Shown here: piece after piece, positions 14,055-53,402 of the stretch
How the letters are laid out: every line of letters starts with the position of its first letter
Numbering within the stretch: position 1 is the stretch's first letter
DNA from: Rhizobiales bacterium UBA1912
GTDB lineage: Bacteria; Pseudomonadota; Alphaproteobacteria; Rhizobiales; Devosiaceae
Reading direction: 5' to 3'
Assembly: GCA_002337455.1 (NCBI GenBank)
Contig: DDGC01000006.1
Location: forward strand, 17,922-81,921
DNA: 64,000 nt
Made by a program: the position numbers and the translations under genes
The notes under the pieces: model-generated
Told to the model about the DNA's origin: nothing
Databases searched by the model: none
Seen by the model: only the letters and a program-made list of their open reading frames with translations

Positions 14055-14110
14055 GGAGCATTTCATACTGCAGGTCTTTGGTTTCCCGCGCTTCCGGACC
14101 AGATAAGTGG
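14055..14110 (+). repeat. degenerate copy of the dispersed two-hairpin repeat (GGAGCATTTCA...GCGCTTCCGGACCAGATAAGTGG)
   Basis: Aligns with 21858-21936. Most of the head hairpin and the 3' arm of the tail hairpin are missing. Confidence 0.5.
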
Positions 14111-14139
14111 CCGACAGCGCTCCAAGAGGTGGACGGCCG

Positions 14140-15198
14140 ATGCGCATGAAGATGGCCCTTGTGCTTGCTGCGGCGCTGAGTTTACCGGTGGCTGCGTTGG
14201 CGCAGATGCAGGTGCTCGATGCACCCGGCGGCGCGGCGGAACCGGCGGCAGAGGAAACCTCGCCCGCGCCGTGCGGCACGACCGAGATCACCATTGCCGA
14301 GATGGGTTGGCCTTCGGCGGCTATCCTGGCCAATATCCACGCCACGTTGCTGCGCGCCGAGTATGAGTGCGTGGTACGGCTGGTGCCCGGCGAACCCGAA
14401 GCGACGCTGTCCTCGATGGCGACCACACAGCAACCGGCCGTGGCGCCCGAATTGTGGGTGTCGCGGCAAGCCGAAGTGTGGAACGGCGCGATGCAGGCGC
14501 GCAGTGCCAGGGCCGCGGCACCGGCCTTCAGCGGCGGGCCGCTGGAAGCGTGGTTCGTGCCCTCCTATGTCATCGACAACAATCGGGGCTTGGCCGGGGC
14601 GAGCGATATCATGGATCACTGGCGGGTGTTCGTCCCGGAGGGAGACACGAGGGCAAAACTCTATTCCTGTCCCGCCGATTGGGCCTGCGCCATCATCAAC
14701 AAGAACATGGCGGCGGGGCTGGGGCTCAATGAGCGCTTCGATATCGTCGAACCGCTCGACAGGTTCGCCATGGACGGCGCGCTCACCGATGCGGTAAGCC
14801 AGCGCCGGCCGGTCCTGACCTATTATTGGCAGCCCAATGCGCTGATAGACCGGCTGGACCTCGTGCCGCTCGACATGGGCGGGTTCGATGCGGGTAACGC
14901 CCAGTGCATGGCGATCCGCGATTGTGTGCCGTTCGGGGGATCAGGCTTTGCGCCCGATGCGGTAGTGATCGCCGTGGCCGAATGGGTGTTTTCCGATACG
15001 CCCGATATTGCCGATTATTTCGCGCAGGCCTCAATGCCGCTCTCCGAAATGAACCGGCTTTTGGCCTGGCAGGCCGAAAACGAGGCGAGCCCGGACGCTG
15101 TGGCGCAGCACTTTCTGATCACGGGGCGGGACGTCTGGCAGGGCTGGGTGGCCGATGGCGGCGACGCGGATGCGGCGTCCCCGGACGCGGCACAATAA
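14140..15198 (+). CDS. glycine-betaine/OpuAC (ProX)-type substrate-binding protein, orphan
   Basis: Signal peptide MRMKMALVLAAALSLPVAALAQ. Shows the OpuAC-like pattern ..ITIAEMGWPSAAILANI.. and ..APELWVSRQ... No cognate permease or ATPase is adjacent. Confidence 0.7.
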   Translation: MRMKMALVLAAALSLPVAALAQMQVLDAPGGAAEPAAEETSPAPCGTTEITIAEMGWPSAAILANIHATLLRAEYECVVRLVPGEPEATLSSMATTQQPAVAPELWVSRQAEVWNGAMQARSARAAAPAFSGGPLEAWFVPSYVIDNNRGLAGASDIMDHWRVFVPEGDTRAKLYSCPADWACAIINKNMAAGLGLNERFDIVEPLDRFAMDGALTDAVSQRRPVLTYYWQPNALIDRLDLVPLDMGGFDAGNAQCMAIRDCVPFGGSGFAPDAVVIAVAEWVFSDTPDIADYFAQASMPLSEMNRLLAWQAENEASPDAVAQHFLITGRDVWQGWVADGGDADAASPDAAQ

Positions 15199-48312: not shown

Positions 48313-51030
48313 TCACGAGCCCTCGAGCCAACCCTGAACGATTGCCTCGTGCTCGGCGATCCATTGCGCGGCGACGGCCTCTGGTGCCTCGCCGCTTTGG
48401 GCGGTTGCGCTGAGCCATGCGTTCAAGTCCTGCGCGCGAAACCGGATGCGTGAAAGTAGTTGCGACACAGAGGGCATGTCGTCTTCAAGCGCCGCGCTGT
48501 AGGCCACGTGAACATCGACGCTGGCCAATTCGCAGTCGCCGCCTCCATTGGGTTCATCACCGGGGCAATCTGAATCGAGTTCGATCGTATCGTATATGGC
48601 GTGCACCCAATCGGGTTCATAACCGTAAAACACAAGCGACTCCCCGCGTGCCTGGAAGCTGGCAAGCTTGGCCCTGAAGATGCTTTCTCCGTAGACCTCA
48701 AAGTCCCAGAACTGGTCCAGCCCGAACCGCTCCAGATGCTGCCTTACAATCGCCGTGGAGAGCCAGTCTCCAGCGCCGATCCATATTTCACCCCTTCCAT
48801 TGCCGTTCGTATCGTATTGGGCCGACACGGCAGCGCTGGCAAGGTCTGAAATTTGCGTCACGCCTTCGGCGAGGGGCGCGGCGACATATATGCCCTGGGT
48901 TCCTTCGTAACTTTGCGCGTTCAGGGAAACGCTGCCTTCGTTTCTGACATAGCGTATCAGGTTCTCGGGCTGGTTCTGCAGCCAGAAATCGGGATGGACG
49001 TCGATCCGGCCATTGGGGTCGGCCATCGCGGCAAAGACATCGTTCAGGTTTGCCTCCTGGACCGCAGCCGAATAGCCGAGCCTGTCGCTGATGGTCTGCC
49101 TGATGACTTCAGCGATCACCTTGCTGGCGTCCCAGGCGAAGCTGGCAATTACGATGTCGCTCTCATCGGAAAAGAATGGCAGTTGAAGCGCTGTGTTGCC
49201 TACGCCGGGTCTTATGATGCGGTCGAGCTGATTGCCGGAATAATCGCTGGACGACAAGGGAAGTGCAAACAGTGCGCCGAGCATGAGCAGAGCCGTGCCC
49301 GAATAGACTATGCGAAAGCCGGACCGGTCGCGTCCGGTCGATATGGTTTCTATATCTCCTGAAAGATTGCGGAAGCGGAGGGTATCGATGCCGTCGAGGC
49401 TGCTGATCTCACGGGTTTCGACGACCGAGCGTGGTACGAAAAGTGTCCGTCCAAGCTCCGAAAATCCCTCCTGAAGCCGCAGAAACTGTTTTCTAAAGCC
49501 CTGAACATTGCTCTTTTCATAATCGCTGATCGTGAAGAGCACCAGCAAGATGCCCGCTGAAAGAATGAACACGCCAATCTGGCTGAGCACGTCGTCGCCG
49601 CGCACCAGGACCAGAAACAGGATGCTGCCGCCTCCGGTGAGCCAAATGGCTGCCTTCTCTCCAAGGGACAGGCGGTCACGATGAATGTTGTACCATTGGT
49701 CGAAATTTGCCCTCGTCTGGCGGAGCCGCTCGGACGGCTCTATTTGCTTCAGCCCGGTTCGAAACGCGACAGCGCTTTCCTGCTTCTCGGCAAGAATTGC
49801 GGTGAATTCTATTTCGATGAGTAATTGGAGCAGGGTATCGATCATATCATCCCTGTCCTGCTCGCCATTGCGCAGCTCAAGCAGGCTGCGCACCAGATCG
49901 GACCGCACATCGACCTCCTGCGCCCTTCGGCCGCTAACCCGGCTCAGAATGAAACCGGCCAGAATGGCGAAGACACCCGACAGGAAGTAGAGCAGGTCGG
50001 TAAGAAATCGCGTGTCGGTCGGCACCACAAAGAACGAGCACAAGGCCACGAAAAGTGTACCGATCAGGGCGGAAAACAGCGCGTTGTTCAACTGGTATCG
50101 CCCATGGAGGGTCATGTTGGCGAACAGGATCAGGACTAGGCCGAACACAGAGAGCGACGATACGGGGACGTCAAAGAACACATAGAGATACACGACCGAG
50201 AGCGCGGGAGAAAAATAGACGAGCGAGGAAAGGGTGAGCGACTTGAACTCCGTAAAGGCCCAGTTCCATGTCATCTCGGCCAAAAGATAGGTGCCGATCC
50301 CGATAAGCGCGCAAATGGCCCAGACCGTCGGATCAAACGCGTAGAAATACAGCCGCTGTCCCGTCGCGCCGAAATAGCAGAGCACGAAAGCGAGCGCCGC
50401 GGCATTGGCGAGCGAAACACTGAAGAAGGTCGCTTTGACCTTGGAGCCGATAATGTCCTCGAATGCGATGAGCGCCTTGAGGCTGAACGGCAAGTAGACG
50501 CCGGACCCGAACGCAGCGAGAAATGCGAACAATATCTCGCTGTTGCTCGTGAGATCGAGGCTCGTCAGTCGGCCTAGACCGATGGCAACGGCCCCAAAGA
50601 ACGCGACCAGAACAAGTGACAATTCCATGCGCGAAAGACGCCGGGCCAGGTTCGGCGCGAAAATCTGCATTGCGAATATGGCGATCAGCGGCCACGTAAA
50701 CGCAATGATGGTGACGTCGGCCTTCTGCGAGTTGTAGAGACCGCGATAAAATCCATAATACCAAAGCGCCAGAAAGAAACCGGCCGTAACGGCGTTCGCC
50801 GCCCCATAGAACACGGCTCGAGTGCGAACCAGCTTGAGCGTGTCGCGCCACATGATGGCGGCGCCCGCGAGGCTGCATGCCAGAGCGATTGCTCCGGCGA
50901 TAACGAAAATCTCGGCAAAGGTCGCGCGATCACCAATTGTCGCGACGAATACCGGCTTCAAGCTCCAAAACAGAATTGCGGTCATCGCGGCAATAACGAT
51001 GACTGGCATAGGCGGCGACTTCAAAGTCAT
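48313..51030 (-). CDS. 905-aa polytopic protein: DMT/EamA-like N-terminal body, extra TM helices and a helical linker, C-terminal OpuAC-type substrate-binding-like domain
   Basis: Architecture read from the translation (about 15 hydrophobic helices). The C-terminal roughly 300 aa parallels the binding protein at 14140-15198 (..FAWDASKVIAEVI.., ..IDVHPDFWLQNQ.., ..AIVQGWL). Lower G+C (55% over 49681-49800). Confidence 0.75.
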   Translation of the reverse strand: MTLKSPPMPVIVIAAMTAILFWSLKPVFVATIGDRATFAEIFVIAGAIALACSLAGAAIMWRDTLKLVRTRAVFYGAANAVTAGFFLALWYYGFYRGLYNSQKADVTIIAFTWPLIAIFAMQIFAPNLARRLSRMELSLVLVAFFGAVAIGLGRLTSLDLTSNSEILFAFLAAFGSGVYLPFSLKALIAFEDIIGSKVKATFFSVSLANAAALAFVLCYFGATGQRLYFYAFDPTVWAICALIGIGTYLLAEMTWNWAFTEFKSLTLSSLVYFSPALSVVYLYVFFDVPVSSLSVFGLVLILFANMTLHGRYQLNNALFSALIGTLFVALCSFFVVPTDTRFLTDLLYFLSGVFAILAGFILSRVSGRRAQEVDVRSDLVRSLLELRNGEQDRDDMIDTLLQLLIEIEFTAILAEKQESAVAFRTGLKQIEPSERLRQTRANFDQWYNIHRDRLSLGEKAAIWLTGGGSILFLVLVRGDDVLSQIGVFILSAGILLVLFTISDYEKSNVQGFRKQFLRLQEGFSELGRTLFVPRSVVETREISSLDGIDTLRFRNLSGDIETISTGRDRSGFRIVYSGTALLMLGALFALPLSSSDYSGNQLDRIIRPGVGNTALQLPFFSDESDIVIASFAWDASKVIAEVIRQTISDRLGYSAAVQEANLNDVFAAMADPNGRIDVHPDFWLQNQPENLIRYVRNEGSVSLNAQSYEGTQGIYVAAPLAEGVTQISDLASAAVSAQYDTNGNGRGEIWIGAGDWLSTAIVRQHLERFGLDQFWDFEVYGESIFRAKLASFQARGESLVFYGYEPDWVHAIYDTIELDSDCPGDEPNGGGDCELASVDVHVAYSAALEDDMPSVSQLLSRIRFRAQDLNAWLSATAQSGEAPEAVAAQWIAEHEAIVQGWLEGS

Positions 51031-51224
51031 TCCAATCAGAAATCGGGCTCGAACTGGCCATGCGCGGGACGAAATTGATTCTGGGCCATTCTGCCATATT
51101 CGGCCCTTCGATCAATGCGGACTGCATGCGCGCCGCTTTCTCAGAAAGAACAACGCGCAGGGGTCGGCAATCATTCTTGCGACAATGCAGAGAGGGCGCG
51201 CGCGATTCCGTTCGATCGGATCGC

Positions 51225-51629
51225 TTAAAGCGCCGAGCGTGCCAGCGGGATGATTTCGGCCGGCTTGCCCGCCAGCGCGTCTTCGACTTTTTCGATCAGT
51301 TGGGCGAGGGAGAAGGGTTTGCCGAGGACGTCGTAGATCAGGGCGTCGAGGCCGTGGGCGCGTTCGCGTTGGTCGGCGAAGCCGGTCATCAAGAGAATGG
51401 TCATGGCGGGGTATTGGGCGCCGATGGCGAGGGCCAGGCCGATGCCGTCCATGACGGGCATCTTGATGTCGGAGACCAGAAGGTCGAAATTTCCGTTGTG
51501 CTCGTTGGCGATTTCGAGGGCGAGGCCGCCGTCGGACGCGTCGATCACTTCGTGGCCGCTCATTTCGAGCGCGCGCGTGACGAAGGCGCGGACATTTTCA
51601 TCGTCTTCGGCCACCAGTATGCGTGCCAT
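51225..51629 (-). CDS. cpdR: single-domain response regulator, CpdR-like
   Basis: MARILVAEDDENVRAFV..LLVSDIKMPVMDG..ILLMTGFA.. resembles the Caulobacter/Rhizobiales CpdR pattern. Confidence 0.75.
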   Translation of the reverse strand: MARILVAEDDENVRAFVTRALEMSGHEVIDASDGGLALEIANEHNGNFDLLVSDIKMPVMDGIGLALAIGAQYPAMTILLMTGFADQRERAHGLDALIYDVLGKPFSLAQLIEKVEDALAGKPAEIIPLARSAL

Positions 51630-51727: not shown

Positions 51728-52591
51728 TTATTGCCCCGCCGCCGATCCGTTGCGGCCGTCGACAAAGCTCAGTCGTATATTTGTAACGCCTTGCGGCGGA
51801 CCGATCAGTTGCGCGTCGATTGCCAATGTATCGCCGGGCAGAACGTTCCGTGTGGCGGGCGTTACCGTCCATTCATAAACAATGGTGCCGGCGGAATCGA
51901 GCAGGCTCACCAGCACCGACGGCACGAAGGTTATGCGATTCGTTATGTTGGAAATCTTAGCGTTTACGACAATGGCCGGGTTTCCATTCTGCGTGGTTCG
52001 CAAAGTCTTAATTTCGGTGAAATCAAGTCCGATGACATTGGTCTTGAGACCGGCAAGACGATAGAGGCCGTCGAGCTGGGGAACTGCCGAGACGATCTCG
52101 GTGCGCAGCGCGAAGGTCGCCGCCACCCCGGCAATGAGCAGGGCAATGATCGCAATGCGGAAAATGCGGCGGAAGCGTGCGATCGGCTGCGCGGCGAGCA
52201 TGCCGTTGCGGCGGCGGGCCAGGGCCTCGATACGGGCACGGTTGCCGGCACTGTCGATGGACGGGCGCGGATCGTGCGGGGTGGGGGCCGGCTCGGGCTC
52301 GGCGGGCGGATGATCTGGGGCGGGTTTGGCGGCCGGTGGCTGTGTGCGCAGGAAGGAGGCGTCGAGCATCTCTTCGTCGGCCGCGGAAAACAGAGTATCG
52401 GAATCGGCCCGGAAGATCAGTTCATCGTCGCTGGGATCGGGATCGCGCCGCGCGGCGGCGGGCTCGGGAAAGCCCGGGGTTGCGTACCAGAGTTCTGAAC
52501 ACGCGGCGCACTGAACCTGCCGGCCGGCCGCGTTGAGCGCATCGGAGCCGAGCTTGTAGCGTGTCTGGCAATTTGGGCAGGTGATGATCAC
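51728..52591 (-). CDS. MJ0042-type zinc-ribbon protein with a proline-rich linker, TM helix and DUF3426-like C-terminal domain
   Basis: (M)IITCPNCQTRYKL..QVQCAACSELW.. followed by a TM helix (..IIALLIAGVAATF..). A GTG start at 52591 is proposed; ATG 52684 is an alternative. The 433-aa track ORF is over-extended. Confidence 0.75.
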   Translation of the reverse strand: MIITCPNCQTRYKLGSDALNAAGRQVQCAACSELWYATPGFPEPAAARRDPDPSDDELIFRADSDTLFSAADEEMLDASFLRTQPPAAKPAPDHPPAEPEPAPTPHDPRPSIDSAGNRARIEALARRRNGMLAAQPIARFRRIFRIAIIALLIAGVAATFALRTEIVSAVPQLDGLYRLAGLKTNVIGLDFTEIKTLRTTQNGNPAIVVNAKISNITNRITFVPSVLVSLLDSAGTIVYEWTVTPATRNVLPGDTLAIDAQLIGPPQGVTNIRLSFVDGRNGSAAGQ

Positions 52592-52742
52592 ACGCGAGGG
52601 ACCGGTGGCAATTAAGCGAAAATGTTGGCCCAACCCTATGCGGGTGGGGTTAAAACTCTTGAAACGCCGCCTTGATGCGGCCATTGGGAGCTGATGGCTG
52701 GTAGGGTAGTGTCCAGCCAGATGATTCGCGGAGAAAAGCGGT

Positions 52743-53402
52743 TTGATCGCGTTCGAAAATGTGGGCCTTCGATACGGACACGGGCCGGAAATTCTCAAAG
52801 ACCTGACCTTTGCGATCTCGCCGGGCTCGTTCCATTTTCTCACCGGACCGTCGGGGTCGGGCAAGACCTCGCTGCTGCGGCTGTTGCTGCTTTCGCTCAA
52901 GCCGACGCGCGGGTCGGTCTCGATGTTCGGGGAAGACGTTACGGCGCTCGACCGCGACAGGCTGTTGCAAATGCGGCGCCATATCGGGATCGTGTTCCAG
53001 GAATTTCGGCTGCTCGACCATCTGACCACATTCGAAAATGTCGCGCTGCCGTTGCGGGTGCGCGGGCAGGCCGAGGCAAGCTATCGCGGCAACGTCGAAG
53101 AACTGCTCGACTGGGTGGGGCTGGGCGACCGCATGGACGCGCACCCGGCGGTGCTTTCGGGCGGGGAAAAGCAGCGTGCGGCGATTGCCCGGGCGGTGAT
53201 CGGCAACCCCGACATCCTGCTGGCCGACGAGCCGACGGGCAATGTGGACCCCGAACTCTCCGAGCGGCTGCTGCATCTGTTCGAACAGCTCAACAAGATG
53301 GGCACGACGATCATCCTGGCCACCCACGAGGTGGCGCTGCTGGAAAAGTTCGGCTATCCGCGCATGCTGTTAAACGATGGGGAGCTCGCCATCCATGAGT
53401 GA
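52743..53402 (+). CDS. ftsE: cell division ATP-binding protein FtsE
   Basis: ..MIAFENVGLRY.., GPSGSGKTS, LSGGEKQRAAIARA, ILLADEPTGNVD. TTG start. Confidence 0.9.
   Translation: MIAFENVGLRYGHGPEILKDLTFAISPGSFHFLTGPSGSGKTSLLRLLLLSLKPTRGSVSMFGEDVTALDRDRLLQMRRHIGIVFQEFRLLDHLTTFENVALPLRVRGQAEASYRGNVEELLDWVGLGDRMDAHPAVLSGGEKQRAAIARAVIGNPDILLADEPTGNVDPELSERLLHLFEQLNKMGTTIILATHEVALLEKFGYPRMLLNDGELAIHE

What the first reader, a model, noticed from the sequence alone, without database searches (positions are those of the whole stretch)
48313..51030. 905-aa fusion of a DMT/EamA-like transporter body with a periplasmic OpuAC-type binding domain
The translation reads as follows. Residues about 1-300 form ten hydrophobic helices in two halves that look like a duplicated EamA domain (compare the plain EamA protein at 1658-2518). 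Four more helices bracket a charged helical segment of about 100 aa (RRAQEVDVRSDLVRSLLELRNGEQDRDDMIDTLLQLL..). A last TM helix (IVYSGTALLMLGALFALPL) leads into a soluble C-terminal domain of about 300 aa. That domain parallels the stand-alone betaine-type binding protein at 14140-15198: IVIASFAWDASKVIAEVI vs ITIAEMGWPSAAILANI; IDVHPDFWLQNQ vs VAPELWVSRQ; AIVQGWL vs DVWQGWV. An odd helix count would place this domain in the periplasm. Binding-protein domains fused to ABC permeases, kinases and chemoreceptors are familiar; I do not know of one tethered to a DMT-type carrier. It could be a binding-protein-assisted secondary transporter or a transceptor. The gene sits next to cpdR and has atypically low G+C.
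Basis: partly seen in the sequence, partly recalled or inferred. Interest (0 to 1): 0.75.

Follow-up and report, generated by a model that had tools for sequence, protein, structure and literature searches.

The report
Osmolyte-binding domain fused to unusual transporter
A marine Pelagibacterium gene encodes one 905-residue membrane protein joining a DMT-type carrier, a bestrophin-like channel-type module and an outward-facing betaine/choline-type binding domain normally seen with ABC pumps; the family is rare and unstudied and may be a new kind of binding-protein-assisted transporter.

Summary
ORF 48313-51030 (-) is one intact 905-aa gene. Full-length homologues of 38-51% identity occur in Alphaproteobacteria and Actinobacteria, so it is not a frameshift artefact.

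The C-terminal domain is a solid OpuAC binding domain (Pfam 9e-36; Foldseek ChoX, TmoX, OpuAC). Its aromatic ligand cage is conserved (W633, W683, Y804).

The N-terminal 10 helices are a true DMT/EamA domain. The single-sequence match is weak (19.5 bits, below cut-off), but a profile hits YddG at 2e-18 and Foldseek agrees.

The "four helices bracketing a charged segment" belong to the Pfam PF14023 bestrophin-like family (hhalign 97.7%). Their best fold matches are bacterial bestrophin channels, at E-values of only 0.09-0.3.

About 70 representative proteins carry DMT, the bestrophin-like module and a final helix without the binding domain. OpuAC is therefore a late addition at an outward-facing C-terminus.

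No conserved neighbour and no ABC partner exists. No paper was found, and databases name the protein an "ABC transporter substrate-binding protein".

My best reading is a self-contained, binding-domain-assisted secondary transporter for a quaternary-amine-type osmolyte (confidence about 0.4). The main rival is a ligand-regulated efflux or channel device. The function is untested.

The parts
48313..51030 (-). Whole ORF, 905 aa plus stop. An alternative start at M8 (ATG at 51007-51009) gives 898 aa, as annotated in RefSeq for P. halotolerans.
50098..51009 (-). DMT/EamA carrier domain, residues 8-311, ten TM helices. It is the most conserved module: 59% mean pairwise identity and 65 invariant residues, including the membrane-embedded E252.
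49315..50082 (-). Bestrophin-like module (PF14023-related), residues 317-572. It comprises the TM11-TM12 hairpin, with TM12 continuing as a 44-residue helix into the cytoplasm. Three cytoplasmic helices follow (365-458), then the TM13-TM14 hairpin, then a cytoplasmic helix and beta-hairpin (505-572).
49252..49314 (-). TM15, residues 573-593. This helix carries the chain to the outside. It is native to the SBP-less core family.
49159..49251 (-). Tether, residues 594-624. It has low pLDDT and about 20% identity, but nearly constant length and a conserved R607-P608 motif.
48352..49158 (-). OpuAC-type substrate-binding domain, residues 625-893 (the fold continues to 905). It faces the periplasm.
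49132..49134 (-). W633 codon, aromatic-cage residue 1. It aligns with W330 of L. lactis OpuA and is invariant in the family.
48982..48984 (-). W683 codon, aromatic-cage residue 2. It aligns with OpuA W377 and is invariant.
48619..48621 (-). Y804 codon, aromatic-cage residue 3. It aligns with OpuA W484 and the ChoX Trp in the GWEPH motif, and is invariant.
51031..51224 (-). 194-bp spacer between the upstream cpdR-like gene (51225-51629, same strand) and this gene. No sigma-70-like promoter match was found.

Best explanation
The gene encodes a self-contained, single-polypeptide, binding-domain-assisted secondary transporter for a trimethylammonium- or dimethylsulfonium-type solute. Candidate substrates are glycine betaine, choline, carnitine, TMAO or DMSP.

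Proposed mechanism, with shown and inferred steps marked:
1. The C-terminal OpuAC domain sits in the periplasm on a tether of about 30 residues after TM15. The topology is supported by the positive-inside count (predicted, not measured).
2. The domain captures the solute in a conserved W633/W683/Y804 aromatic cage. The cage is shown by alignment; the ligand is inferred.
3. The closed domain docks on the outer face of the 10-TM DMT domain and hands over the solute. This step is inferred. The candidate docking loops are G33-D34-R35 and F229-Y230-A231-x-D233. They are conserved only in the fused family.
4. The DMT domain moves the solute by alternating access, probably coupled to H+ or the membrane potential. 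This is inferred by analogy with the DMT choline importer LicB. E252 in TM8 is a candidate coupling residue.
5. The bestrophin-like module is an ancestral partner of this DMT clade. It most likely supplies oligomerisation and/or a regulated ion path or regulatory cytoplasmic domain. This is inferred and is the least certain step.

The gene was probably acquired horizontally. It stands alone and needs no ABC ATPase or permease.
For: - OpuAC domain: Pfam 9.2e-36. Foldseek gives ChoX, TmoX, OpuAC, ProX and DmpX at E 1e-10 to 7e-9 with target TM-scores of 0.70-0.82.
- The cage residues align with OpuA W330/W377/W484 and are invariant in 24 sequences.
- DMT domain: a profile hits YddG at 2e-18 and the choline importer LicB at 8e-5. 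Foldseek gives YddG a TM-score of 0.61-0.64.
- The DMT domain is the most conserved module, which argues against a mere anchor.
- Topology is N-in and SBD-out.
- All 69 SBP-less relatives end in a C-terminal TM helix with a tail of 0-28 aa. OpuAC was therefore appended at an outward-facing end.
- No neighbour is conserved across 17 loci and no ABC genes are adjacent.
- Residues conserved only in the fused family are enriched in the outer loops of the DMT domain: 7 of 37 positions against 15 of 267, one-sided Fisher p 0.0097.
- Most members are Actinobacteria, which lack a periplasm. Tethering makes sense there, the same rationale given for TAXI-GltS fusions in PMC12344293.
- LicB shows that a DMT carrier can import choline with proton coupling (PMC8890701).
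Against: - No experiment exists on any member of the family.
- The closest solved DMT relative, YddG, is an exporter, and many EamA proteins are exporters.
- All accepted SBP-dependent secondary transporters (TRAP, TTT, TAXI-GltS) use elevator-type membrane parts. DMT carriers do not (and my own knowledge).
- The core family works without any binding domain, so the SBD could be regulatory rather than a substrate donor.
- The role of the bestrophin-like module is unexplained by a simple carrier model.
- The outer-loop enrichment is post hoc, rests on approximate helix boundaries, and loses significance when outer TM halves are included (p 0.10).
- Ligand identity is not resolved. NCBIfam ProX and choline-SBP scores are far below their cut-offs.
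- AF2 inter-domain geometry could not be inspected, because no coordinates or PAE were available.
Confidence: 0.4

Rival explanations
1. Ligand-regulated release valve or channel. The SBD acts as an external sensor. Its liganded state gates either the bestrophin-like pore (if the module pentamerises like bestrophins) or a DMT exporter. Ion or osmolyte efflux would thus be tuned to the external supply of compatible solute.
For: - The middle module is homologous to PF14023 'Bestrophin-like' (hhalign 97.7%, E 2e-12).
- Its best fold matches are KpBest, VCCN1 and Best2 channels.
- The closest solved DMT relative is the exporter YddG.
- The DMT plus bestrophin-like core functions without an SBD in about 70 representative proteins, so the SBD looks like an added control element.
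- From my own knowledge: some eukaryotic bestrophins act in cell-volume regulation and release organic solutes. This is a lead only.
Against: - The SBD hangs on a single, poorly conserved tether of about 30 residues. That cannot transmit clamshell closure mechanically as in iGluRs, so gating would need docking.
- The bestrophin fold matches are weak: E 0.09-0.3, TM-score 0.42-0.50, rmsd above 8 A.
- No sequence hit to solved bestrophins was found.
- Pentamer and pore could not be tested.
- The DMT domain, not the bestrophin-like module, is the most conserved part.
Confidence: 0.25
2. Transceptor or pure sensor. Ligand binding outside is relayed through the membrane body to the cytoplasmic helical domain, which signals to an unknown partner. 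Transport is vestigial.
For: - SBP domains do serve as sensor inputs elsewhere (my own knowledge: TorT/TorS, LuxP/LuxQ, chemoreceptors).
- A conserved cytoplasmic helical domain is present, with invariant R368, R369, E372, R376, W446, D452, S455 and E458.
- In the window the gene lies downstream of a CpdR-like response regulator.
Against: - No kinase, MCP, GGDEF or other output domain appears in Pfam or NCBIfam at E<=1.
- The cpdR adjacency is absent from every other locus examined.
- The strong conservation of the DMT domain (65 invariant residues) is hard to explain for a vestigial carrier.
Confidence: 0.12
3. Anchored orphan binding protein. The SBD delivers substrate to an unlinked ABC (or other) betaine or choline transporter encoded elsewhere. 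The 15-TM body acts only as its membrane anchor, or does an unrelated job.
For: - Databases name the protein 'glycine betaine ABC transporter substrate-binding protein'.
- From my own knowledge, orphan and membrane-anchored SBPs exist in Gram-positive bacteria.
- The window encodes at least one further OpuAC-type protein.
Against: - A 600-residue, highly conserved 15-TM body is an implausible anchor when a lipid or a single helix suffices.
- The fusion is maintained at full length across two phyla at 38-51% identity.
- No ABC genes are adjacent in any locus.
- The database names are automatic transfers from the OpuAC hit.
Confidence: 0.1
4. Assembly or annotation artefact: two or three separate genes joined by a frameshift or a misassembly.
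For: None was found. The only truncated forms seen are fragments or disrupted copies (P0004, P0046-P0048, L021).
Against: - 45 near-full-length clusters of 814-938 aa, covering 89-100% of the query, come from independent genomes and metagenomes.
- 16 species genomes carry a full-length match.
- RefSeq complete genomes of P. halotolerans carry the same ORF at 95% identity.
- The reading frame is continuous, with conserved residues across all junctions.
Confidence: 0.02

Closest known systems
OpuA of Lactococcus lactis (OpuABC: OpuAC binding domain fused to the ABC permease; PDB 7ahc/7ahd/7ahh, 3l6g/3l6h)
   Same: - The binding-domain family and fold are the same (Foldseek 3e-10, target TM-score 0.82).
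- The domain is tethered to the C-terminal end of a membrane domain and faces outward.
- The aromatic cage positions are conserved: W330, W377 and W484 correspond to W633, W683 and Y804.
   Different: - The membrane body here is not an ABC permease. There is no BPD_transp_1 hit, no ATPase and no ABC genes nearby.
- The third cage residue is Tyr, not Trp.
- The energy source must be ion- or potential-driven, if the protein is a transporter at all.
SBP-dependent secondary transporters: TRAP (DctPQM/SiaPQM), TTT (TctABC) and the TAXI-GltS class proposed in 2025 (PMC12344293)
   Same: - The concept is the same: a substrate-binding protein coupled to a non-ABC membrane transporter.
- As in TAXI-GltS, rare natural fusions occur, mostly in bacteria without a periplasm.
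   Different: - The binding domain is OpuAC type, not DctP, TAXI or TctC type.
- The membrane part is a DMT fold plus a bestrophin-like module, not an elevator-type DASS or GltS-like fold.
- No split (two-gene) version was found.
- Function is untested.
DMT superfamily 10-TM carriers: YddG (5i20, amino-acid exporter) and LicB (7b0k, proton-coupled choline importer; PMC8890701)
   Same: - The N-terminal 10 helices match YddG by profile (2e-18, full length) and by fold (TM-score 0.61-0.64), and match LicB at 8e-5.
- N-in/C-in topology is shared.
- LicB is a precedent for quaternary-amine import by this fold.
   Different: - Identity to YddG is only about 20%.
- The domain is fused to a further 600 residues.
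- Direction of transport and substrate are unknown.
- The W in TM1 that aligns with the symmetry mate of LicB W167 is a general EamA motif. It is also present in YddG, so it does not indicate choline.
Bestrophin channels and the Pfam PF14023 'Bestrophin-like domain' family (ex-DUF4239); KpBest 4wd7/6ivo, VCCN1 7ek1
   Same: - The middle-module profile aligns with a bona fide PF14023 protein at 97.7% probability over 233 columns.
- 12 of 69 SBP-less relatives hit PF14023, best 1e-6.
- Topology is shared: a TM hairpin, a long helix into the cytoplasm, a helical cytoplasmic domain, a second TM hairpin, and both ends inside.
- The best PDB fold matches are bestrophins.
   Different: - The window protein itself has no PF14023 hit at E<=1.
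- The fold match is marginal (E about 0.1, TM-score at most 0.50).
- No sequence match to solved bestrophins was found.
- Pentameric assembly, pore-lining residues and conductance are untested.
- PF14023 itself has no characterised member that I could find.
Ionotropic glutamate receptors / bacterial GluR0 (periplasmic-binding-protein fold joined to a channel); comparison from my own knowledge
   Same: An extracellular type-II binding-protein fold sits in the same polypeptide as a channel-like membrane module.
   Different: - In iGluRs the binding domain is split by and tightly linked to the pore helices.
- Here it hangs from one flexible C-terminal tether after an extra helix.
- The channel family and the binding-domain family are both different.

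Membership tests
OpuAC / PF04069 betaine-choline-type substrate-binding domain | Profile match above the curated threshold | tested here: met
   124.2 bits against a cut-off of 21.2, E 9.2e-36, residues 625-893 covering profile positions 2-257 of 257. All 24 family members match.
OpuAC / PF04069 betaine-choline-type substrate-binding domain | Two-lobe type-II binding-protein fold | tested here: met
   The AF2 domain has pLDDT of mostly 80-95. Foldseek gives ChoX 1.1e-10, TmoX 2e-10, OpuAC 3e-10, ProX and DmpX, with target TM-scores of 0.70-0.82.
OpuAC / PF04069 betaine-choline-type substrate-binding domain | Aromatic cage for the onium head group | tested here: met
   W633, W683 and Y804 align with OpuA W330, W377 and W484 (the cage identity of those OpuA residues is from my own knowledge). 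All three are invariant in alignment A1.
ABC-type betaine/choline importer (OpuA/ProU/ChoVWX) | Partner ABC permease and ATPase, fused or encoded adjacently | tested here: not met
   There is no permease or ATPase domain in the protein. There are no ABC genes next to the gene in the window or in three homologue loci. No neighbour is conserved in 17 loci.
DMT superfamily, EamA family (PF00892) | Profile match above the curated threshold | tested here: inconclusive
   The window protein scores 19.5 bits, below the 28.2 cut-off. However, 22 of 24 family members match at E<=0.01, best 1.3e-10, and 68 of 69 SBP-less relatives match, best 3e-23.
DMT superfamily, EamA family (PF00892) | 10-TM fold of two inverted 5-TM repeats, as in YddG | tested here: met
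   The model has ten helices. The profile hits YddG 5i20 at E 2e-18 over residues 8-311 against 4-286. Foldseek gives 5i20 at E 5e-4 with a target TM-score of 0.61-0.64. The cross-repeat alignment to LicB shows the internal duplication.
DMT superfamily, EamA family (PF00892) | Transport activity and substrate | not testable with these tools
   This needs uptake or efflux assays.
PF14023 Bestrophin-like domain (ex-DUF4239) | Profile match | tested here: inconclusive
   The window protein has no hit at E<=1. SBP-less homologues do: P0081 at 1.2e-6 with 28.7 bits (cut-off 32), covering profile positions 34-218 of 232. In all, 12 of 69 match at E<=0.1, and every other family hits only one member.
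PF14023 Bestrophin-like domain (ex-DUF4239) | Homology to a bona fide member by profile comparison | tested here: met
   hhalign of A3 (which includes the window sequence) against P0204 gives 97.7% probability, E 2.2e-12, over 233 columns. P0204 scores 47 bits on PF14023, above the cut-off of 32. The window-family middle-module HMM alone hits P0081 at 2.3e-27 with the database size set to 1.8e9.
Bestrophin channels (KpBest/BEST1) | Same fold as solved bestrophins | tested here: inconclusive
   The top Foldseek hits are KpBest, VCCN1 and Best2. Their E-values are only 0.09-0.97, TM-scores 0.42-0.50 and rmsd about 8-9 A. The profile against PDB sequences gives no bestrophin hit.
Bestrophin channels (KpBest/BEST1) | Pentameric assembly with a central ion pore | not testable with these tools
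   No multimer prediction or coordinates were available.
SBP-dependent secondary transporters (TRAP / TTT / TAXI-GltS) | Family-specific binding protein (DctP, TAXI or TctC) and an elevator-type membrane component | tested here: not met
   The binding domain is OpuAC type. The membrane part is DMT plus a bestrophin-like module. The protein may work like these systems, but it is not a member.

The most novel reading that the evidence does not exclude
[quoted passage not shown] The SBD-fused proteins would be the first case in which an ABC-type OpuAC domain feeds, or gates, a non-ABC, non-elevator membrane machine. A sharper variant is that the bestrophin-like module forms a pentameric pore controlled by the liganded SBD. 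That would make it a bacterial osmolyte-gated bestrophin-type channel coupled to a carrier.
Probability: 0.3. Interest if true: 0.85.

Novelty: new variant of a known kind. Interest (0 to 1): 0.65.

Why it matters
Until 2025 only TRAP and TTT systems were known to pair a binding protein with a secondary transporter. A third class, TAXI-GltS, was proposed in 2025, largely from gene linkage, rare natural fusions and modelling (PMC12344293). All three use elevator-type carriers.

An OpuAC domain hard-wired to a DMT carrier would show that binding-protein assistance is not restricted to ABC or elevator mechanisms. It would also add an ATP-independent route for compatible-solute or quaternary-amine acquisition in marine Alphaproteobacteria and soil Actinobacteria.

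The wider DMT plus bestrophin-like family found here has at least about 70 representatives at 50% identity and has no described function. It links two families whose bacterial biology is poorly known. PF14023 has no characterised member that I could find.

In practice, the current database name ("glycine betaine ABC transporter substrate-binding protein") is misleading and inflates counts of ABC systems.

Tried and rejected
- **Frameshift or misassembly fusion.** Rejected, because full-length homologues occur in two phyla and in RefSeq complete genomes.
- **Pairwise comparison of the DMT part with the window's plain EamA protein.** It shows nothing (E 6.4).
- **Middle-module profile (A3) against PDB sequences.** It returned only de novo helical bundles and coiled coils, and no bestrophin.
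- **The search for homologous proteins with the A3 alignment.** It returned nothing at E<=0.01, so the search was wasted. A single-sequence search with the P0081 middle module gave one weak hit, P0204, which proved useful for hhalign.
- **Conserved operon partner.** None was found in three annotated contexts or in an all-against-all ORF comparison of 17 loci. Only within-genus Promicromonospora synteny appeared.
- **Anti-phage defence or phage origin.** I considered this because stand-alone DMT relatives lie in mobile-element-like regions. PADLOC gave nothing meaningful. PHROGs gave only a weak hit to an unknown-function family for two SBP-less relatives.
- **Natural SBD-less 'DMT only' version in Microlunatus (L021).** It is a copy truncated by an insertion, not a variant architecture.
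- **Ligand assignment from NCBIfam.** The ProX score (54 bits against a 215 cut-off) and the choline-SBP score (50 against 379) are both far below threshold, so they do not discriminate.
- **Literature searches.** Searches for EamA with OpuAC, PF04069 with PF00892, DUF4239, bestrophin-like with EamA, and Pelagibacterium with betaine found no description of the architecture.
- **Promoter scan of the 194-bp upstream spacer.** No sigma-70-like match was found. This is uninformative for an alphaproteobacterium.


Full report
**The ORF and its source**

Window 48313..51030 (minus strand) is a single ATG-initiated ORF of 905 aa. Its product is 95% identical over 898 residues to WP_050811727.1 of Pelagibacterium halotolerans (Devosiaceae, Hyphomicrobiales). 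RefSeq starts that protein at the position of M8. The window therefore comes from a Pelagibacterium. RefSeq names the protein "glycine betaine ABC transporter substrate-binding protein".

The flanking genes are argH and lysA, both above NCBIfam cut-offs and convergent with this gene. A CpdR-like single-domain response regulator lies upstream on the same strand, 194 bp away. Its best hit is CpdR, at 96 bits against a cut-off of 180. ftsE and ftsX lie further on.

The gene is compositionally atypical. Its G+C is 57.2% against 61.4% for the window, which ranks 3rd lowest of 307 windows of 2.7 kb. Its GC3 is 70% against 78-83% in neighbouring genes.

**Is it one real gene?**

Yes. A search of 5.8 billion clustered proteins returned 48 clusters. 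Of these, 45 are near full length (814-938 aa, covering 89-100% of the query) at 39-51% identity. They come from Rhodobacterales MAGs and from many Actinobacteria: Promicromonospora, Nocardioides, Brevibacterium, Microlunatus, Glutamicibacter and Gordonia.

A pattern scan of one genome per species (185,579 species) confirmed 17 loci, 16 of them full length. An alignment of 24 members is collinear from end to end, with invariant residues in every segment. The only truncated forms are contig fragments or a copy disrupted by an insertion (L021).

The architecture is therefore real, rare, and shared between two phyla. Together with the low G+C, this points to horizontal transfer.

**Module 3: the OpuAC domain**

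- Pfam PF04069 matches residues 625-893 at 9.2e-36.
- A family profile hits ProX, OpuAC, ChoX, TmoX and the SBD of full-length OpuA in the PDB.
- The AF2 model (pLDDT 77.8, pTM 0.69) matches ChoX, TmoX, OpuAC, ProX and DmpX at E 1e-10 to 7e-9, with target TM-scores of 0.70-0.82.

In the residue-level alignment to full-length L. lactis OpuA (7ahc numbering), W633, W683 and Y804 align with W330, W377 and W484. From my own knowledge, those three Trp form the cage around the trimethylammonium group. All three positions are invariant in the family.

The binding site is thus intact. The ligand class (onium head group) is inferred. The exact ligand is not resolved, because the NCBIfam ProX and choline-SBP scores are far below their cut-offs.

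The similarity to the window's stand-alone OpuAC-type protein (14107-15198) is real but remote: 20% identity, E 5e-6.

**Module 1: the DMT/EamA domain**

For this sequence alone the EamA hit is sub-threshold at 19.5 bits (cut-off 28.2). The window's own EamA protein shows no pairwise similarity. The wider evidence is firm:

- 22 of 24 family members hit EamA, best 1.3e-10.
- A profile of the domain plus 31 stand-alone relatives hits YddG (5i20) at 2e-18 over its whole length. It hits the choline importer LicB (7b0k) at 8e-5, with the repeat-swapped alignment typical of the 5+5 duplication.
- Foldseek gives YddG at E 5e-4 with a target TM-score of 0.61-0.64.

This is the most conserved module, at 59% mean pairwise identity with 65 invariant residues. 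That argues that it is a working carrier and not an anchor.

Residues about 317-572 are not a spacer. They comprise TM11-12, a 94-residue charged cytoplasmic helical segment, TM13-14, and a further cytoplasmic helix plus hairpin. Five lines of evidence identify the module.

1. An exhaustive HMMER search with residues 1-600 against 1.84 billion representatives found 144 relatives in three tiers:
   - a handful of proteins of about 915 aa, which are the fused family;
   - about 30 proteins of 300-345 aa that match only the DMT part;
   - about 70 proteins of 550-690 aa that match residues about 12-570/590, that is DMT plus middle module, with no binding domain.
2. All 69 proteins of the third tier end in a strongly hydrophobic helix with a tail of 0-28 residues. 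TM15 therefore belongs to the ancestral core, and the core's C-terminus already faced outward.
3. In those proteins EamA is strong (68 of 69). The only other recurring Pfam family is PF14023 "Bestrophin-like domain" (ex-DUF4239). It matches 12 of 69, best 1e-6, covering profile positions 34-218 of 232.
4. An HMM of the fused family's middle module alone hits P0081 at 2.3e-27, scaled to the whole library. hhalign of a middle-module alignment containing the window sequence against a bona fide stand-alone PF14023 protein gives 97.7% probability, E 2.2e-12, over 233 columns. That protein, P0204, scores 47 bits against a cut-off of 32.
5. An AF2 model of residues 305-625 (pLDDT 75, pTM 0.68) has bacterial bestrophin KpBest, plant VCCN1 and Best2 as its best PDB matches. 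These matches are marginal: E 0.09-0.97 and TM-score 0.42-0.50. A sequence profile does not reach solved bestrophins.

I conclude that the module belongs to the PF14023 family. Its bestrophin-type fold is probable. Channel activity is unproven.

**Topology**

There are fifteen helices. K+R in short loops is 9 on the predicted inside against 3 outside, with family means of 10.8 and 3.1. Both long charged segments also fall inside.

The DMT domain is N-in/C-in, the bestrophin-like module is N-in/C-in, and TM15 exports the chain. The SBD therefore lies outside. It hangs on a tether of about 30 residues with low confidence and low conservation (20% identity). The tether has nearly constant length and a conserved R607-P608 motif.

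**Genomic context**

Homologues sit between unrelated housekeeping genes. Examples are DUF192 and nuoG, PCMT and rplU, and YceI and an FAA hydrolase. An all-against-all ORF comparison of 17 loci finds no gene family shared across genera other than the gene itself. There is no ABC permease or ATPase, no catabolic operon, and no conserved regulator. The cpdR adjacency is specific to this genome.

**Mechanism**

The best-supported reading is a self-sufficient, binding-domain-assisted secondary transporter for an onium-type osmolyte or nutrient. Four things support it:

- an intact cage;
- an outward tether;
- a highly conserved carrier domain of a fold that is known to import choline with proton coupling (LicB; PMC8890701);
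- the predominance of hosts without a periplasm, where tethering is needed. This is the same rationale given for TAXI-GltS fusions (PMC12344293).

A suggestive extra comes from positions conserved in the fused family but not in stand-alone DMT or SBP-less relatives. These are enriched in outer loops of the DMT domain (G33-D34-R35 and F229-Y230-A231-x-D233). The count is 7 of 37 against 15 of 267, p 0.0097. Such a pattern is expected for a docking surface. The test is post hoc and depends on approximate helix boundaries.

Several points weigh against this reading:

- The nearest solved relative is an exporter.
- Known SBP-dependent secondary systems all use elevator-type carriers.
- The core family works without an SBD.
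- The bestrophin-like module has no role in a simple carrier model.

Hence the main rival is that the SBD is a regulatory sensor gating efflux or a bestrophin-type pore. A pure sensor, an anchored orphan SBP and an artefact are less likely.

**Novelty**

No paper in the searchable library describes an EamA-OpuAC protein, a DMT-bestrophin-like fusion, or any function for DUF4239/PF14023. Databases carry the proteins under a transferred ABC name.

I class this as a new variant of a known kind, namely transporters with tethered binding domains. There is a real chance that it represents a further class of SBP-dependent secondary transport, or a ligand-controlled channel-carrier hybrid. Everything functional is inference, and the decisive experiments are straightforward.

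Noticed in passing
L024-L028 (loci of P0052 and P0051); L022 (locus of P0081): The closest stand-alone relatives of the DMT domain (327-338 aa, 45-46% identity) lie in regions that look like mobile elements or prophages. These regions carry DUF6011, DUF6927, DUF3846, an N6 methyltransferase, YAcAr and many small ORFs without Pfam hits. An SBP-less 612-aa relative sits among four resolvase genes. Why this DMT clade travels with mobile elements is unexplained. PADLOC and PHROGs gave nothing useful.
   Followed up: partly
L021 5935-6942 (Microlunatus sp. GCM10028923): This homologue is cut off right after the DMT domain (it ends ...TLHANQARC*). An 857-aa ATPase-like ORF follows on the other strand. 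It is a disrupted copy, not a natural DMT-only variant.
   Followed up: partly
window 14107-15198 (+): This is a stand-alone OpuAC/ProX-like binding protein with a signal-peptide-like N-terminus. It is only weakly ProX-like (NCBIfam 33 bits against a 215 cut-off). It is 20% identical to the fused domain over the C-terminal half. I did not examine its neighbours or whether it has an ABC partner.
   Followed up: no
window 51728-53029 (-): This ORF contains an MJ0042-type zinc-ribbon domain (residues 148-183). As listed, with a GTG start, it overlaps the start of ftsE (52743) on the opposite strand by about 290 bp. The true start is probably further downstream.
   Followed up: no
window 51007-51030 (-): The start codon is ambiguous. 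The ORF's first ATG gives 905 aa, while RefSeq homologues start at the second ATG (M8, 898 aa). Neither has a convincing Shine-Dalgarno sequence.
   Followed up: partly
window 49207-49212 (-), residues R607-P608: The tether between TM15 and the binding domain is otherwise unconserved. It carries an invariant Pro and a near-invariant Arg at a fixed distance (about 14 residues) from the membrane in all 24 homologues. This hints at a specific contact rather than a passive leash.
   Followed up: no
window 48313-51030 versus flanks: The gene's G+C (57.2%) and GC3 (70%) are well below those of its neighbours (62-64% and 78-83%). The family is split between Actinobacteria and a few marine Alphaproteobacteria. 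This is consistent with horizontal acquisition, here between lysA and cpdR. I saw no integrase, tRNA or repeat boundary, but I did not search for them systematically.
   Followed up: partly
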